A model generated the notes under the pieces. It searched no databases and had not been told where the DNA came from. It was given only the letters and a program-made list of their open reading frames with translations. From Patescibacteria group bacterium (GTDB lineage Bacteria > Patescibacteriota > Minisyncoccia > Phycocordibacterales > UBA12079): 51,952 bases of DNA. The DNA lies in NCBI GenBank assembly GCA_034661035.1, contig JAYEKM010000003.1, positions 1 to 51,952 of the forward strand, given 5' to 3'. The translations under genes and the position numbers were made by a program. Below, piece after piece: positions 2,723 to 51,952 of this stretch; the stretch's first letter is position 1; the number at the start of each line of letters is the position of its first letter.

Positions 2723-3563
2723 TAATATAGAACAATTAAAAGCATCAGCGTTAACTATTAGAAAAGAAATAGTTAAAATGCTTACTCAAGCGGGTACAGG
2801 ACATACAGCTGGTTCTTTAGATATGGTAGAAATTTTAGTTTCTCTGTATTTAAATATTTTAAAACATGATCCTCAAAATCCAGACTGGGAAGAAAGAGAC
2901 CGATTGATTTTATCTCATGGACATGTTTGTCCAGCACTTTATGCAACCATGGCGGAAGCGGGGTATTTTTCTAAAACAGAATTACAGACCTTACGAAAAT
3001 TTGGTTCTTCCTTACAAGGACACCCTCATAGAGAGTGGTTAAAGGGTATAGAAACAAGTTCGGGGCCTCTGGGATCAGGACTTTCTCAGGCTGTTGGTAT
3101 GGTATTAGCTGACCGTATAAATTATTTTTCTAATAAGAATTCTTTTAAAGAAAGGAAATTTTTTTATTGTCTGATGTCAGACGGGGAGATACAAGAGGGA
3201 CAGGTTTGGGAAGCTTTAATGTTAGCTGGGAAGGAAAAGATAGCTAACTTAATCGTCTTTATTGATAGAAATGAGATTCAGATTAGTGGTCAAATGGAAA
3301 AGGTTATGCCGTTGGAACCTTTACGTGATAAGTTGGAAGCTTTCAACTGGCAAGTTTTGGAAATAGATGGACATGATTTTGAACAGATTATAGGAGCAGT
3401 TGAAGTAGCCAAAAAAACTATAAATTTACCTTTTGAAGAGAATAAGCCGATTGCTATTATCGCTCACACAATTTCTGGTAAAGGTTACCCTGAATTTGAA
3501 AATGACTATAAATGGCACGGTAAAGTTCCCACCACTTCCGGAGGTCCGACCTCCGGAAATTAG
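2709..3563 (+). CDS. Transketolase, N-terminal (TPP-binding) subunit
   Basis: GHTAGSL, DRLILSHGH, LQGHP, SGPLGSGL, SDGEIQEG and WHGK motifs. Likely start is the ATG at 2715. Confidence 0.92.
   Translation: MKMDNNIEQLKASALTIRKEIVKMLTQAGTGHTAGSLDMVEILVSLYLNILKHDPQNPDWEERDRLILSHGHVCPALYATMAEAGYFSKTELQTLRKFGSSLQGHPHREWLKGIETSSGPLGSGLSQAVGMVLADRINYFSNKNSFKERKFFYCLMSDGEIQEGQVWEALMLAGKEKIANLIVFIDRNEIQISGQMEKVMPLEPLRDKLEAFNWQVLEIDGHDFEQIIGAVEVAKKTINLPFEENKPIAIIAHTISGKGYPEFENDYKWHGKVPTTSGGPTSGN
3536..3558. repeat. REP-like hairpin TTCCGGAGGTC-C-GACCTCCGGAA, left of RAYT
   Basis: Perfect 11-bp inverted repeat with a 1-nt centre. Confidence 0.85.
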
Positions 3564-3584
3564 AATAAAATACCTTATAATATA

Positions 3585-4280
3585 ATGAAAAATCCTCAAT
3601 TTTTAAATAATTATATTTATCATGCTTACAACAGAGGTGTAGAGAAAAGAGATATTTTTGTAGATGATTATGACAGGCTTCAGTTTATACATGATTTATT
3701 CGAATTTAATGACGTTTCTTCTGTAATGGATAAAGTCAAAAATAAAACTCAGACGGACAGTTTTCGAGAAATTGCCAGATACTCCAGAAAAGAAAATAAA
3801 AGAGAAAAATTAGTAGATATTCTTGCTTTCGTTTTGATGCCTAACCATTTTCATTTGTTGTTAATCCAAAAAAAAGATGATGGTATTTCAAAGTTCATGC
3901 AAAAACTGGGAACTGGTTATACAATGAGTTTTAATAAAAAATACAAAAGAGTGGGGAGTTTGTTTCAAGGAGGATATAAAGCTGTGTTAGTAGAAAGAGA
4001 TGAGCATTTGAGATATCTTCCCTTTTATATTCATCTTAACCCATTAAAGATTAAAACTTGTGGAGGTTCAACCCCCACAGATTGGGAATTTTTGAAAAAA
4101 TATAGGTGGAGTAGCTTGTTAGATTATATTGGTAAAAAGAACTTTCCTTCAGTAATTAATAAAGAATTTTTATCAACTACCTTGGGATATGAGGAAGAAC
4201 ATGAGAAAGAAATAAAGAGGTGGTTAAAAAAGGACAGAAATATTAATGAAGAAGTGTTAGAAATAAATTCGGGAGGTTGA
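3585..4280 (+). mobile_element. REP-associated tyrosine transposase (RAYT / Y1 HUH family)
   Basis: YHAYNRG..KRDIF, LAFVLMPNHFHLL (HUH), FNKKY.R.G.LFQG, YIHLNP (catalytic Tyr) and YRWSS. Flanked by REP hairpins. Confidence 0.9.
4059..4079. repeat. REP-like hairpin inside the RAYT ORF (TGTGGAGGTTCAACCCCCACA)
   Basis: Same GAGGTY-N-RACCYC core, read in frame as CGGSTPT. Confidence 0.7.
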
Positions 4281-4290
4281 ACCTCCGGAA
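4268..4290. repeat. REP-like hairpin TTCGGGAGGTT-G-AACCTCCGGAA, right of RAYT
   Basis: Same core in the opposite orientation. Contains the RAYT stop codon. Confidence 0.85.
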
Positions 4291-13401: not shown

Positions 13402-13554
13402 CTGGAAAAAGTCTCCTACCTATTAATTATTGGGGATAAAGAATTAGAAGATAAGAAAGTAACAGTTGAAAGTAGAGATAAAGGGGACTTAGGTCAATCA
13501 TCTTTAGATGACTTTTCGGAAAAAGTCGAAGATGAAATCGAAGACAAAAAATAA
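13402..13554 (+). pseudogene. Orphan 3' fragment resembling the threonyl-tRNA synthetase anticodon-binding C-terminus
   Basis: Hand translation gives LEKVSYLLIIGDKELEDKKVTVESRDKGDLGQSSLDDFSEKVEDEIEDKK*, matching the ThrRS tail pattern K.PY.L..GDKE.E...V.V..R...DLG...L..F. There is no ATG after the in-frame TAG at 13369. Confidence 0.75.
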
Positions 13555-13609
13555 CACCTAAACAAAAATAAAAAACTTAAAATAAAAAGCACTAAATAAA
13601 ATAAACCCC

Positions 13610-13714
13610 ACTAAAATAAACAGTACTAAAATAAAAAATACTAAAATAAAAAACACTAAAATAAAAAATACTAAAATAAAAAACACTAAAATAAAAAATA
13701 CTAAAATAAAAAAC
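13610..13714 (+). repeat. 15-bp tandem repeat ACTAAAATAAAAAAY x7
   Basis: Units start at 13610, 13625, 13640, 13655, 13670, 13685 and 13700. The last base alternates T/C from unit 2. Degenerate copies extend back to ~13560. Confidence 0.9.
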
Positions 13715-13735
13715 AAAAAGATGTAGAACACATTC

Positions 13736-13770
13736 TTACCCTTTTTTTGACGGTCGTCACAAAAAGGTAA
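13736..13770. repeat. Hairpin TTACCCTTTTTTTGACGGTCGTCACAAAAAGGTAA upstream of the PaaX/Cas2-like gene
   Basis: Imperfect inverted repeat. It is an inverted counterpart of 14360-14389. Confidence 0.8.
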
Positions 13771-13800
13771 AGACATATTAAAAAATAAATTTAAAAAATT

Positions 13801-14352
13801 ATGAAAAGAATTCCTGTTCAAAAGATAATTTTAACAACGGTGGCTACCGCTGGTGTTTTAAGTGTTGCTTTATTAGCACCTAATGCCCTGCAGGTCATTA
13901 GGCAATTTTCAGGAAAACAAAATTATAATAAGAAAAATTATTTGAATAATTCAATAGGAAATTTATTAAAAAAAGGTTATCTAAAGTTTGAAGTTAGTGA
14001 TGATGGTAAAAAATTTTTTAGTTTAACTAAAAAAGGGGAAGATCAATTAGTTAAATATAAAATAGGAGACTTGGAAATAAAAAAACCTAAAAAATGGGAT
14101 AAAAAATGGAGAGTAGTTATCTTTGATATAAAAGAAAAAAGAAGGGAGGTTAGGAATTTATTAAGGTCACTTTTGAACAGATTAGGTTTTATAAAATTAC
14201 AAAATAGTGTTTGGGTTTTCCCTTATGAATGTGAGGAATTAGTGATAATGCTTAAATCAAGTCTTTTCTTAGGAAAAGATGTCTTATATATGACAGTAGA
14301 TAAAATAGAGAATGACAAATGGCTAAAAGAGACTTTTGGTTTGGTTAAATAA
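13801..14352 (+). CDS. Stand-alone PaaX-like / Cas2-fold protein (wHTH-like region plus WD.KWR.V.FDI...LGF..LQ.SVW)
   Basis: Motifs LTKKG, WDKKWRVVIFDI, LGFIKLQNSVWV.PY. No cas1, CRISPR array or paa genes nearby. Confidence 0.8.
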   Translation: MKRIPVQKIILTTVATAGVLSVALLAPNALQVIRQFSGKQNYNKKNYLNNSIGNLLKKGYLKFEVSDDGKKFFSLTKKGEDQLVKYKIGDLEIKKPKKWDKKWRVVIFDIKEKRREVRNLLRSLLNRLGFIKLQNSVWVFPYECEELVIMLKSSLFLGKDVLYMTVDKIENDKWLKETFGLVK

Positions 14353-14359
14353 ATAATTA

Positions 14360-14389
14360 ACCTTTTTTGGACGACCGTTCAAAAAAGGT
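14360..14389. repeat. Hairpin ACCTTTTTTGGACGACCGTTCAAAAAAGGT downstream of the PaaX/Cas2-like gene
   Basis: Near-perfect inverted repeat beginning 8 bp after the stop codon. Confidence 0.85.
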
Positions 14390-14556
14390 ACTAAGTGTTT
14401 AATTAAATAGTGTGATTATTTCTTGGACCTTAAAGGGTAAAAAGTTTGATATTTGATGTTTTACTGGTATTATTCATTTTAGTAATTTGTTGTTTTTTAT
14501 AGAGATTTCCATCAGAAATGGTCTGGAAAAAATTAATCTTTTTAGGAGGAGAGAAA

Positions 14557-14940
14557 ATGAAAAAGTTAGTATCCTTGTTGGTTATGGTTATTGTAGTAGG
14601 TGGATTTTCCACAGTAGTGACAGGCGAAGAAAAACCTTTTATTAATAACAGGTTTGTTCTTGAGAGAGGTTTTACCTTGATGGAAGAGATTAAGGAAACT
14701 TGCCCCTCTCAAACAGACGATGTCGAAGAATTTGCGATTTGTCAATATCTTCGGCGTCTTGCTGAAGAAGCAATGAAAAGGCTTCTAGAAGATATTGGTA
14801 ACGAGGAGTTTTTTGTCTCCTTGCATTTGTTTATTAAGGAGATAGAAGAAATTCTTTCAAATGATTGTTGCCTGATAGAAAGAAATCTGAATTTTTCCTC
14901 GGATAACAAAGATCTCCAGCGGTGGACCAAAGGATTTTGA
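14557..14940 (+). CDS. Hypothetical secreted protein
   Basis: AGGAGG SD before the ATG at 14557, signal peptide MKKLVSLLVMVIVVGG, and its own terminator. Confidence 0.7.
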   Translation: MKKLVSLLVMVIVVGGFSTVVTGEEKPFINNRFVLERGFTLMEEIKETCPSQTDDVEEFAICQYLRRLAEEAMKRLLEDIGNEEFFVSLHLFIKEIEEILSNDCCLIERNLNFSSDNKDLQRWTKGF

Positions 14941-42760: not shown

Positions 42761-42900
42761 GTACACAAACTCAGCGACCGTTGAGTTTGTGTACGATTTA
42801 CAATTTATGTACAGTGCAGAAGTTTATGTACAACCACTTGGACGTCCAAGTGTGGAGGTTCAACCTCTATAAGTTCTCTAAAATTGGAAGGTTCAATCTT
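42761..42900. repeat. Cluster of mixed palindromes
   Basis: GTACACAAACTCA-GCGACCGT-TGAGTTTGTGTAC (42761-42794), CACTTGGACGTCCAAGTG (42835-42852), GAGGTTCAACCTC (42855-42867) and AAGGTTCAATCTT (42888-42900). Confidence 0.8.
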
Positions 42901-51492: not shown

Positions 51493-51657
51493 CCCTGTTA
51501 ACTAATAAACTGTGAACAGGGTAAACCCTGTTAACTAATAAACTGTGAACAGGGTAAACCCTGTTAACTAGTAACCTGTGAACAGGGTAAACCCTGTTAA
51601 CTAGTAACCTGTGAACAGGGTAAACCCTGTTAACTAAACAAAGGTAAACAGGGTAAA
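51493..51657. repeat. Tandem array of five 33-bp hairpin units CCCTGTT-N15-AACAGGG-TAAA
   Basis: Units start at 51493, 51526, 51559, 51592 and 51625. Unit 1=2, unit 3=4, unit 5 is divergent. Confidence 0.95.
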
Positions 51658-51780: not shown

Positions 51781-51952
51781 ATGAAAATTAATCTAATTAA
51801 AACTAAATTAATAACCATCATTGTGTTAACAATGATGGTTATTACAGCAACCTGTCTGCCGTCAGACACCACCAACGCAGCCTTCACAGAACCCACCACA
51901 GCACCCTCAGCCTCAGACCAAGACTTCACCCAAAACATCCTAGGCGCTAACA
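51781..51952 (+). CDS. Secreted/surface protein, 3'-partial
   Basis: Open to the window end: MKINLIKTKLITIIVLTMMVITATCLPSDTTNAAFTEPTTAPSASDQDFTQNILGAN. Signal peptide followed by a Pro/Thr linker. Confidence 0.7.
   Translation, partial: MKINLIKTKLITIIVLTMMVITATCLPSDTTNAAFTEPTTAPSASDQDFTQNILGAN

What the first reader, a model, noticed from the sequence alone, without database searches (positions are those of the whole stretch)
13736..14389. Stand-alone PaaX/Cas2-fold gene bracketed by inverted copies of a specific hairpin: candidate new single-gene mobile element
Seen: the 183-aa gene is enclosed by two ~30-35-bp hairpins (CCTTTTTT..ACG-GT-CGT..AAAAAGG) that are near reverse complements of each other, 30 bp before the start and 7 bp after the stop. 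A third hairpin with the same CGACCG centre but different arms lies alone at 42761-42794. This is the same layout as the RAYT-REP locus 10 kb upstream, but the protein has no HUH motif. It has a wHTH-like region and a Cas2/VapD-like fold with the beta-1 Asp (VIFDI). There are no paa catabolic or cas genes. Inference: these proteins, usually labelled regulators or Cas2, may bind or nick their flanking hairpins and form a REP-like selfish or defence system.
Basis: partly seen in the sequence, partly recalled or inferred. Interest (0 to 1): 0.78.

Follow-up and report, generated by a model that had tools for sequence, protein, structure and literature searches.

The report
Palindrome-flanked Cas2-fold gene with dispersed palindromes
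A small DNA-binding-type protein gene of an ultra-small bacterium sits between two copies of a long DNA palindrome, and the same palindromes are scattered through genomes that carry the gene, so the pair looks like a previously undescribed selfish or domesticated repeat system.

Summary
The 183-aa gene (13801-14352) encodes a winged-helix domain plus a PaaX_M/Cas2-fold domain. It is bracketed by two near-identical palindromes with a CGRYCG centre.

- In 80 homologous loci such palindromes are about 100 times denser within 300 bp of the gene than farther away: 22 of 80 loci have them on both sides, and 58 of 80 have at least one under looser rules.
- Arms differ between loci but match within a locus. 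The centre is invariant.
- Solo copies lie in intergenic DNA. Their presence and number track the gene across 41 related genomes (both present 14, gene only 4, palindrome only 4, neither 19). The three same-genus genomes have neither.
- In one genome a 38-bp palindrome occurs six times identically, while its paralogous proteins are only 52-82% identical.
- The window gene, and all three own solo palindromes I checked, are missing from the same sites in same-genus genomes.

Best reading: a REP/RAYT-like protein-plus-palindrome system built on a non-HUH protein that probably binds as a PaaX-type dimer. Binding and cleavage are untested. I found no prior description. Interest is high.

The parts
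13740..13767 (.). Upstream palindrome H1 (arm type CCTTTTTT, centre CGGTCG); weak pairing extends to 13734-13773
13801..14352 (+). 183-aa gene: winged helix (about residues 6-89) plus PaaX_M/Cas2-fold domain (about 97-178, FDI Asp109)
14360..14389 (.). Downstream palindrome H2 (same arm type, centre CGACCG)
42761..42794 (.). Solo CGACCG-centred palindrome of the second arm type (ACACAAA..GCG). This type also lies upstream of the genome's second paralog on contig C20.
13343..15020 (.). Stretch between pbp2 and the conserved greA promoter that is missing in 5 of 5 related genomes examined (their spacers are 127-328 bp)
13403..13576 (+). Fragment resembling the 3' end of a class II aminoacyl-tRNA synthetase gene; 81% identical in DNA to own contig C25:7526-7698. 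It lies inside the inserted stretch but outside the hairpin-bounded unit.
   Evidence: the synthetase reading is from the translated frame and my own knowledge
13565..13713 (.). A-rich tandem repeat (15-bp unit, about 7 copies) just upstream of H1
14557..14940 (+). Orphan 127-aa ORF with a hydrophobic N-terminus, outside H2. It has no Pfam hit and no homologue in the genome or in the fetched loci.

Best explanation
The gene and its palindromes are one member of a protein-plus-palindrome system of Patescibacteria that works like REP/RAYT but uses a different protein.

**What the protein is (shown).** It corresponds to the N-terminal two-thirds of a PaaX-type repressor: a winged helix plus the Cas2-fold middle domain. 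It lacks the effector-binding C-terminal domain.

**How it probably binds (inferred).** It binds as a dimer on double-stranded DNA to its own 38-40-bp palindrome. The two winged helices would read the paralog-specific outer arms. The Cas2-fold pair would sit over the invariant CGRYCG dyad.

**What the palindromes do (shown by comparison).** They have multiplied as miniature elements into intergenic DNA, mostly behind gene ends, where many look like two-way terminators. They occur in arm families that match the resident paralogs.

**How the gene behaves (shown by comparison).** The gene with its two palindromes is gained and lost as a small cassette.

**What the protein does (inferred).** At the least it occupies these sites, which would give autoregulation at the upstream copy. 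It is also the prime suspect for copying them, possibly by cutting at the dyad with the conserved Asp109/Glu112 site. No catalysis has been shown.
For: 1. **Flanking palindromes are general.** CGRYCG-centred palindromes of at least 9 pairs run at 63 within 300 bp of the gene against 5 farther away in 80 loci (1.33 against 0.013 per kb). Of the 80 loci, 22 have them on both sides, 18 on one side and 40 on neither. Allowing up to 3 mismatches, 58 of 80 loci have at least one.
2. **Arms vary, centre does not.** 16 of 17 arm pairs show changes on both sides, while the centre C, G, C, G columns are invariant in 54 of 54 sequences.
3. **The gene and the palindromes occur together.** In 41 genomes both are present in 14, the gene alone in 4, palindromes alone in 4 and neither in 19 (Fisher p 1.5e-4). 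Counts scale with each other: 10 genes with 97 matches, 8 with 61, 2 with 28. Spearman correlation is 0.69 overall. Within the family it is 0.72 for this gene against 0.34 for the Y1 transposase.
4. **Palindromes multiply without the gene.** G013 has 50 distinct sites, about 15 of them next to genes. One 38-mer is identical in 6 places (2 flanking a gene, 4 solo), and identity stops at the core. The 9 paralog proteins compared are 52-82% identical.
5. **A complete genome shows the same.** G009 has 18 sites, 4 of them flanking its 2 genes. Several solos carry the arms of one or other paralog.
6. **Own genome.** It has two paralogs and two arm groups covering 10 sites.
7. **Insertions.** The window gene lies in a spacer that is 127-328 bp and holds no such gene in 5 of 5 relatives. 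The C22 solo sits in about 112 bp that are absent where argS and the helicase gene abut in 2 of 3 same-genus genomes. The C12 and C25 solos are absent at the same sites in 3 of 3.
8. **The unit is hairpin-bounded.** Similarity to a homologue in a different context runs from H1 to H2 only.
9. **It is a DNA palindrome.** G.T mismatches number 41 and A.C 46.
10. **Fold and geometry fit PaaX.** The best structural match is E. coli PaaX 8a39, E 5.4e-5. The E. coli PaaX operator is given as TGATTC(N27)GAATCA, a 39-bp span (passage of PMC9493321).
Against: - No binding, cleavage or transposition has been measured.
- There is no HUH motif and no invariant histidine. Cas2 nuclease activity is dispensable in its own system (passage of PMC11980593).
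- In 22 to 40 of the 80 loci, depending on stringency, no palindrome was found; these are mostly the more distant homologues.
- 4 gene-bearing genomes gave no model hit, and 4 genomes have hits but no gene. One of the latter, G016, has 15 matches at 87% completeness.
- Every palindrome-positive genome (18 of 18) also has a Y1 transposase, so a helper from that family is not excluded.
- The genomes are related, so the tests overstate independence. The model was trained partly on hairpins from these same genomes.
- Solos could be scars of deleted cassettes.
- Arm types can be swapped relative to the gene: L043 has different types upstream and downstream, and L045 has a close gene with other arms.
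- Contigs of the only holding run showed no excision joint.
Confidence: 0.55

Rival explanations
1. Plain autoregulated transcription factor. The palindromes are only its operators and terminators. The solos are a small regulon or ordinary terminators, and the protein plays no part in their spread, which is done by replication template-switching or another enzyme.
For: The protein has the PaaX-type fold, and PaaX represses its own promoter through a long-spaced inverted repeat. The upstream palindrome ends 26-110 bp before the start codon in most paired loci. Many solos carry A- and T-tracts and lie behind gene ends. A Y1 transposase is present in 18 of 18 palindrome-positive genomes.
Against: - Identical 38-mers at up to 6 unlinked sites need a copying process.
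- 5 of 14 solos in G009 and 2 of 6 in the own genome lie between convergent genes, where there is no promoter to regulate.
- Perfect 2 x 16-29 bp symmetry is far more than an operator needs.
- Within the family, palindrome number follows this gene (rho 0.72) and not the Y1 transposase (rho 0.34).
Confidence: 0.25
2. Integrating cassette. The gene moves by recombination at pre-existing CGRYCG palindromes, which are target sites. Solos are empty targets or scars left when the two flanking copies recombine. The palindromes do not move on their own.
For: The gene is gained and lost at varied sites. Chimeric arrangements occur: L043 has different arm types upstream and downstream, and G009:646113 has two different half-arms. 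The central two bases are flipped in about half of the pairs.
Against: - Arm type travels with the gene into different contexts: window H2, L042 and L043 downstream copies.
- No two paralogs in G013 are more than 82% identical, while their palindromes are identical in several solo copies.
- The three own solos examined are insertions absent from same-genus genomes, which have no such palindromes at all.
Confidence: 0.1
3. Toxin-like or defence module. A VapD/Cas2-fold nuclease is fused to its own DNA-binding domain and kept in the genome by addiction or anti-phage benefit. The palindromes serve for autoregulation only.
For: The protein has a Cas2/VapD-type fold with the conserved beta-1 Asp. 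The gene is patchy, multicopy and often on short contigs. VapD-like proteins are toxins of type II systems (abstract and passages of PMC11980593).
Against: There is no partner gene inside the hairpin-bounded unit, and no fused longer forms were found. No known defence genes were seen beside it in the loci examined. This reading does not explain the dispersed solo palindromes.
Confidence: 0.07
4. Coincidence. The two hairpins are ordinary terminators that happen to resemble each other.
For: The genome is AT-rich and has 448 hairpins of at least 10 pairs.
Against: 0.01 matches were expected and 2 seen. Enrichment next to homologues is about 100-fold. 19 of 23 gene-less genomes gave zero model hits.
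Confidence: 0.02

Closest known systems
REP/REPIN elements with their RAYT transposases (the IS200/IS605-derived HUH Y1 family)
   Same: A gene flanked by its own palindromes. The same palindromes are dispersed in extragenic DNA, mostly behind genes. Separate repeat families exist for separate paralogs in one genome. Repeat presence tracks gene presence. A true RAYT with its REPs lies in the same window for comparison.
   Different: The protein is unrelated: no PF01797 hit, no HUH motif, a winged helix plus a Cas2 fold. The unit is a single perfect palindrome of 38-60 bp with a conserved centre and variable arms, not a REP doublet. The gene is patchy and multicopy (up to 10 per genome), not single-copy and vertically inherited. 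The mismatch pattern gives no sign of a single-strand-specific structure.
PaaX, the repressor of phenylacetate catabolism (E. coli structure 8a39; TIGR02277)
   Same: Winged helix followed by the PF20803 Cas2-like middle domain. It is the best structural match. PaaX binds an inverted repeat spanning 39 bp and represses its own promoter (passage of PMC9493321).
   Different: The C-terminal effector domain is missing. The score is 32 bits against the 264.55 needed for TIGR02277. PaaA/PaaC was not found in the genome. The beta-1 FDI Asp is invariant here, as in Cas2.
Cas2 of CRISPR-Cas adaptation modules
   Same: It passes the TIGR01573 cut-off, and public records often label the family as Cas2. 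It has the ferredoxin-like fold with the beta-1 Asp and is associated with partly palindromic repeats.
   Different: The genome has no Cas1 and I saw no array. It carries an extra N-terminal winged helix. PF09827 scores below its cut-off (21.2 against 23.8). The repeats are dispersed singly or flank the gene, not arrayed with spacers.
pdif modules of Acinetobacter plasmids and integron cassettes (recalled; not tested here)
   Same: Small gene units bounded by palindrome-like recombination sites, found in varied contexts.
   Different: In those systems the arms are conserved and the centre varies, and host or integron tyrosine recombinases act on them. Here the centre is conserved and the arms vary, and no recombinase lies in the unit.

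Membership tests
PaaX family regulators (TIGR02277) | Central Cas2-like domain PF20803 | tested here: met
   1.4e-19, 70.4 bits against a cut-off of 24
PaaX family regulators (TIGR02277) | Whole-protein equivalog score, including the C-terminal effector-binding domain | tested here: not met
   32.4 bits against a cut-off of 264.55. The match covers model positions 37-133 of 279. The protein ends at residue 183 and has no PaaX_C hit.
PaaX family regulators (TIGR02277) | Context of phenylacetate catabolic genes | tested here: not met
   PF05138 PaaA/PaaC gave 0 matches in the own genome (93% complete). The neighbours are pbp2 and greA.
Cas2 (CRISPR-associated) | Cas2 sequence model | tested here: inconclusive
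   TIGR01573 scores 28.9 bits, above its 24.5 cut-off, over residues 103-141 only. PF09827 scores 21.2, below its 23.8 cut-off.
Cas2 (CRISPR-associated) | Partnership with Cas1 next to a CRISPR array | tested here: not met
   PF01867 gave 0 matches in the own genome, with controls positive in 7 of 14 genomes. I did not run a dedicated CRISPR array finder.
REP/RAYT systems | HUH Y1 transposase (PF01797) | tested here: not met
   The protein has no PF01797 hit and no invariant His among 48 sequences.
REP/RAYT systems | Gene flanked by its cognate palindromes | tested here: met
   Window. 22 of 80 loci on both sides at high stringency, and 58 of 80 with at least one at lower stringency.
REP/RAYT systems | Dispersed extragenic copies that occur only with the gene | tested here: met
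   Table of 41 genomes: 14, 4, 4, 19. About 35 of 50 sites in G013 and 14 of 18 in G009 are not next to a gene. There are 8 exceptions among the 41 genomes.
REP/RAYT systems | Protein binds and cleaves the repeat | not testable with these tools
   Needs biochemistry.
VapD-type toxin-antitoxin pairs | Adjacent antitoxin gene | tested here: not met
   There is a single ORF between H1 and H2. I saw no conserved second gene in the loci I read.

The most novel reading that the evidence does not exclude
The winged-helix plus Cas2-fold protein is itself a new kind of DNA transposase or nuclease, with no HUH, DDE, tyrosine- or serine-recombinase motif. It would cut its cognate palindrome at the CGRYCG dyad and copy it, and occasionally its own gene, into new sites. 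That would make it a stand-alone Cas2 relative that handles palindromic repeats without Cas1. It would also be a living model for how a Cas2-like protein first came to work on repeats.
Probability: 0.25. Interest if true: 0.92.

Novelty: new variant of a known kind. Interest (0 to 1): 0.78.

Why it matters
- **A second route to REP-like repeats.** Genome-wide palindromic repeat families tied to a dedicated protein were known essentially from REP/RAYT, where the protein is an HUH transposase. Here a system of the same kind is built on an unrelated protein, in tiny, streamlined genomes of 0.6-0.9 Mb that would be expected to shed such DNA.
- **It may explain a published oddity.** A survey reported that Candidatus Campbellbacteria have the highest inverted-repeat density of any phylum (passage of bioRxiv 10.1101/2024.09.29.615628).
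- **It corrects annotation.** The family is large: 598 clusters at 50% identity at E up to 1e-30. Public records label it 'CRISPR-associated endonuclease Cas2', 'PaaX regulator' or 'hypothetical'.
- **It is testable.** It offers a tractable case of protein-DNA specificity evolving in paralog families. If the protein cuts DNA, it also bears on where Cas2 came from.

Tried and rejected
- **Sequencing runs.** Only one run, probably the source, holds the stretch, and it is kept as contigs. No RNA holder is listed. Laying three runs showed no joint that skips the gene. The one joint seen (14001 to 14180, with 175 other letters between) comes from a 12,935-base contig that I take to be the second paralog.
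- **Dimer prediction.** Two copies scored 0.20 against a mark of 0.42: no verdict.
- **Fused forms.** No proteins of 322-2000 aa scored.
- **Promoter scan.** No sigma-70-like site between H1 and the ATG. Hits overall were not above shuffles.
- **Empty-site comparison for a G013 solo against G009.** The middle of the region is not homologous, so nothing could be read.
- **Cargo.** In 2 of 80 loci (L056, L072) the second palindrome lies 0.9-1.2 kb downstream. One holds a 235-aa ORF that I did not characterise.
- **Literature.** 'PaaX' with 'Cas2-like', 'Patescibacteria', 'Cas2', or 'Cas2' plus 'winged helix' gave 0 papers each. No paper listed by the searches for REPIN/RAYT with Patescibacteria, or for extragenic palindromes in these phyla, describes this system. 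Subscription journals and supplementary files are not covered.
- One search was a mistaken query with irrelevant DNA and gave nothing of use.
- **RNA hairpin reading.** I considered an RNA hairpin that the protein cleaves as an RNase. I set it aside because G.T (41) is not favoured over A.C (46) among mismatches.
- **Telomere-resolvase-type sites.** These have long perfect palindromes with a 6-bp centre and flip/flop forms. I considered them and found no support: no tyrosine-recombinase domain is present.

Full report
**1. What is at the site**

The ORF at 13801-14352 (+) encodes 183 aa. It matches Pfam PF20803, the central Cas2-like domain of PaaX, over residues 97-168 (1.4e-19). It also passes the NCBIfam cas2 model (28.9 bits, cut-off 24.5), but only over residues 103-141. 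It is far below the PaaX equivalog (32.4 bits against 264.55).

An AlphaFold model built on 48 homologues (pLDDT 78.5) shows three helices and a beta wing (residues 6-75), a linker helix, and then a beta-alpha-beta-beta-alpha-beta fold (103-178). Its best match among solved structures is E. coli PaaX (8a39, E 5.4e-5). After that come winged-helix proteins (PadR, MukE), with Cas2 chains further down. Invariant residues include Asp109 and Glu112 in the FDIKE stretch, Gln134-Asn-Ser-Val-Trp138, Asp160 and Tyr163. No histidine is invariant.

**2. The association is a property of the family**

In 29 homologous loci from 17 related genomes, most genes lie between two long palindromes. The two copies match each other, but the arms differ from locus to locus. 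All share a CGACCG or CGGTCG centre. More distant homologues have CGATCG, CGGCCG, CTATCG or CTATAG.

I repeated this on 80 loci taken from named species-representative genomes. These were the best 80 of 221 relatives found, so the sample leans towards closer relatives.
- Palindromes of at least 9 pairs with at most one mismatch: 63 within 300 bp of the gene, 5 in the remaining 379 kb of flanks, none inside the gene. That is 1.33 against 0.013 per kb.
- Of the 80 loci, 22 have one on each side, 18 on one side and 40 on neither.
- Alignments of the closest loci show degenerate copies that this rule misses.
- Allowing three mismatches, 58 of 80 loci have at least one, for 97 palindromes in all.

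An ungapped alignment of 54 such palindromes has the four C/G centre columns invariant. 16 of the 17 arm pairs show changes on both sides. The sequences were chosen for being palindromic, so the 96% pairing is by construction. The diversity of the arms is the informative part.

Among mismatches, G.T (41) is no commoner than A.C (46). An RNA hairpin read from one strand should favour G.U. This points to symmetry kept at the DNA level.

The two central bases are flipped between the flanking copies in roughly half of the pairs (my count: about 10 inverted, 8 direct).

**3. The palindromes also live alone, and they track the gene**

*Own genome (684 kb, 30 contigs).* It holds a third copy of the window's palindrome on contig C22 and seven more CGRYCG-centred palindromes. 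It also has a second paralog, cut by a contig end (C20:2-214, 76% identical), with its own palindrome about 130 bp upstream. By eye the ten sites fall into two arm groups:
- CC(C)TTTT..GACG: the two copies flanking the window gene, plus C22 and C12.
- ACAC(A/T)AA..GCG: the copy upstream of the C20 paralog, plus window 42761, C24, C25 and C30.

*Survey of 41 genomes.* I built a covariance model from the 54 palindromes and searched the same 41 genomes that I had searched with the protein. Gene and palindromes are both present in 14, the gene alone in 4, palindromes alone in 4, and neither in 19 (Fisher p 1.5e-4). Matches rise with gene number:
- G013: 10 genes, 97 matches.
- G018: 8 genes, 61 matches.
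- G009: 2 genes, 28 matches.
- The three other genomes of the window's genus: no gene, no match.

*Caveats.* The genomes are related. A site often matches on both strands. Part of the model's training set came from these genomes.

*Other candidate enzyme.* A Y1 transposase is present in 31 of 41 genomes, including all 18 with palindromes. Within the family, however, its copy number does not follow palindrome number (rho 0.34 against 0.72 for this gene).

**4. The palindromes have been copied**

G009 is a complete 753-kb genome, named Candidatus Campbellbacteria in the record title printed. It has 18 sites: 4 flank its two genes and 14 are solo. One solo is identical in its arms to one paralog's palindrome, and several are close to the other's. 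Five or six have arms seen next to genes only in other genomes.

G013 has 50 distinct sites at E up to 0.001 (my count), about 15 of them next to genes. The palindrome flanking the gene at C33:3669-4211 recurs, identical over 38 bp, at four unlinked sites, and identity stops at the core. Two other paralogs have similar sets. The nine G013 paralog proteins I compared are only 52-82% identical. So the palindromes have multiplied recently and without the gene.

Solos lie in intergenic DNA:
- Own genome: 2 between convergent genes, 4 between tandem genes, none between divergent genes.
- G009: 5 convergent, 1 divergent, 7 tandem, 1 unclear.

Many have an A-run before and a T-run after, like two-way terminators.

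**5. Gain and loss**

*The window gene.* In five relatives (three of the same genus) the order mreC-mreD-pbp2-greA-lysS is kept. The pbp2-greA spacer is 127-328 bp and holds no such gene and no CGRYCG palindrome. In the window that spacer is 1.7 kb. Besides the hairpin-bounded gene it holds a fragment 81% identical to the 3' end of a gene on C25, a 15-bp tandem repeat, and an orphan 127-aa ORF. So the polymorphism here is not cleanly hairpin-bounded.

*Homologues elsewhere.* Close homologues sit in other places. Two lie between the orthologues of own C20:404-1696 and the end of C18, where the own second paralog lies. Two lie between two genes that are adjacent in the own genome. One lies between two genes adjacent on own C29.

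*Extent of the shared unit.* Against the homologue in the first of these contexts, DNA similarity starts at H1 and ends at H2. Arm type can go with the gene: the window, L042 and L043 downstream copies share CCTTTTTT arms. It can also be exchanged: L043 has another type upstream, and L045 has another type on both sides.

*Solos.*
- The C22 palindrome lies in about 112 bp between argS and a PIF1-type helicase gene. In two of three same-genus genomes the stop and start codons of these genes are 1-2 bases apart. The third has an unrelated 94-bp spacer.
- The C12 and C25 palindromes are likewise missing from the same positions in three of three.

**6. How it most likely works**

*Shown.* The fold, the flanking arrangement, the covarying arms with a fixed centre, the dispersed copies, the co-occurrence with the gene, and the insertions.

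*Inferred: binding.* The protein binds the palindrome. PaaX has a winged helix, a dimerisation motif and an effector domain. Its E. coli operator is given as TGATTC(N27)GAATCA, a 39-bp span, and it represses its own promoter (passages of the review PMC9493321). The shared core here is 38-40 bp. The parts that differ between paralog families include the outer six bases. In one clade the start of the predicted recognition helix changes with them:
- RETYYM goes with AATTAC.
- REKYY goes with AATACC.
- NERYYL goes with AATCTT.

Each of these is seen in two loci. Gene and flanks are linked, so this alone does not prove specificity.

In such a complex the Cas2-fold pair would lie on the dyad, above the invariant CGRYCG. 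Its Asp109/Glu112 site could cut there.

*Open.* Who copies the palindromes is unknown. This protein is the only factor found that tracks them, but no catalysis is known for PaaX_M domains. Cas2's own nuclease activity is dispensable for its role (passage of PMC11980593).

**7. Unexplained**

Beyond the shared 38-bp core, the two flanks of a given copy are often complementary to each other, with sequences that differ from copy to copy. The mean extension is 3.35 bp, against 0.71 bp when flanks are paired at random; none of 2000 shuffles reached the observed mean. An extension of at least 6 bp occurs in 10 of 54 sites, against 0.36 expected. Either the element inserts into the centre of existing short palindromes, or palindromes grow outwards by template switching at replication. 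The C22 and C12 comparisons favour the second explanation, or a longer insert, because nothing of the outer arms is present in the relatives.

**8. Comparison and novelty**

The system works like REP/RAYT but fails the defining protein test. It is not a PaaX regulator: it has no effector domain and no paa genes. It is not a CRISPR Cas2: there is no Cas1. My searches of the open literature found no paper linking PaaX-type or Cas2-fold proteins with dispersed palindromes. One preprint reports the highest inverted-repeat density of all phyla in Candidatus Campbellbacteria, but in the passage I saw it names no protein.

The family has 1064 hits in one protein search and 598 clusters at E up to 1e-30 in another. 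Nearly all are 170-220 aa, and public labels include Cas2, PaaX regulator and hypothetical.

I rate it a new variant of a known kind. If the protein proves to be the enzyme, it would be categorically new.

Noticed in passing
window 3540-4287: An IS200-like Y1 transposase (RAYT-type, 231 aa, PF01797 1.8e-10) is flanked by GGAGGTCCGACCTCC upstream and GGGAGGTTGAACCTCC downstream. Hairpins with GTCCGAC or GTCCAAC centres are among the commonest in the genome (6 each). So a classical REP/RAYT system coexists with the CGRYCG system.
   Followed up: partly
window 13403-13576: A fragment resembling the 3' end of a class II aminoacyl-tRNA synthetase gene, 81% identical in DNA to own contig C25:7526-7698. 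It lies just after pbp2, inside the inserted stretch.
   Followed up: partly
window 13565-13713: A-rich tandem repeat (15-bp unit ACTAAAATAAAAAAT, 6.9 copies, 93% matches). Depth in the source run's contigs rises about tenfold in this bin, so similar repeats occur elsewhere in that sample.
   Followed up: no
window 14557-14940: Orphan 127-aa ORF with a hydrophobic N-terminus. It has a good ribosome-binding site and a promoter-like site at 14446-14473. It has no Pfam hit and no homologue in the genome or the fetched loci.
   Followed up: partly
window 51493-51634 and 51809-51844: Near the window's end there is an array of overlapping inverted repeats built on GTGAACAGGGT/ACCCTGTTAAC. There is also a 16-bp-arm palindrome, TAATAACCATCATTGT..ACAATGATGGTTATTA, that recurs near the end of contig C11 (16825-16864). 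These are probably the ends of another repeated element that breaks the assembly.
   Followed up: no
own genome C5:19000, C5:19712, C10:75, C27:77: Another palindrome family, CCACAGATTTGAATTCAGT(AA/TT)ACTGAATTCAAATCTGTGG, in four copies. Three of them are within about 120 bp of a contig end.
   Followed up: no
G009:C1:646113-646150 (L136): A CGACCG-centred site whose two half-arms belong to two different arm types. One is that of a resident paralog; the other is a type seen next to a gene in G013. It looks like a recombinant between two palindromes.
   Followed up: no
G016 and G008 (related genomes): These have palindrome model hits (15 and 5 matches) but no homologue of the gene. G016 is 87% complete and G008 97%. 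Either the gene was lost and the repeats persist, or the assembly has gaps.
   Followed up: no
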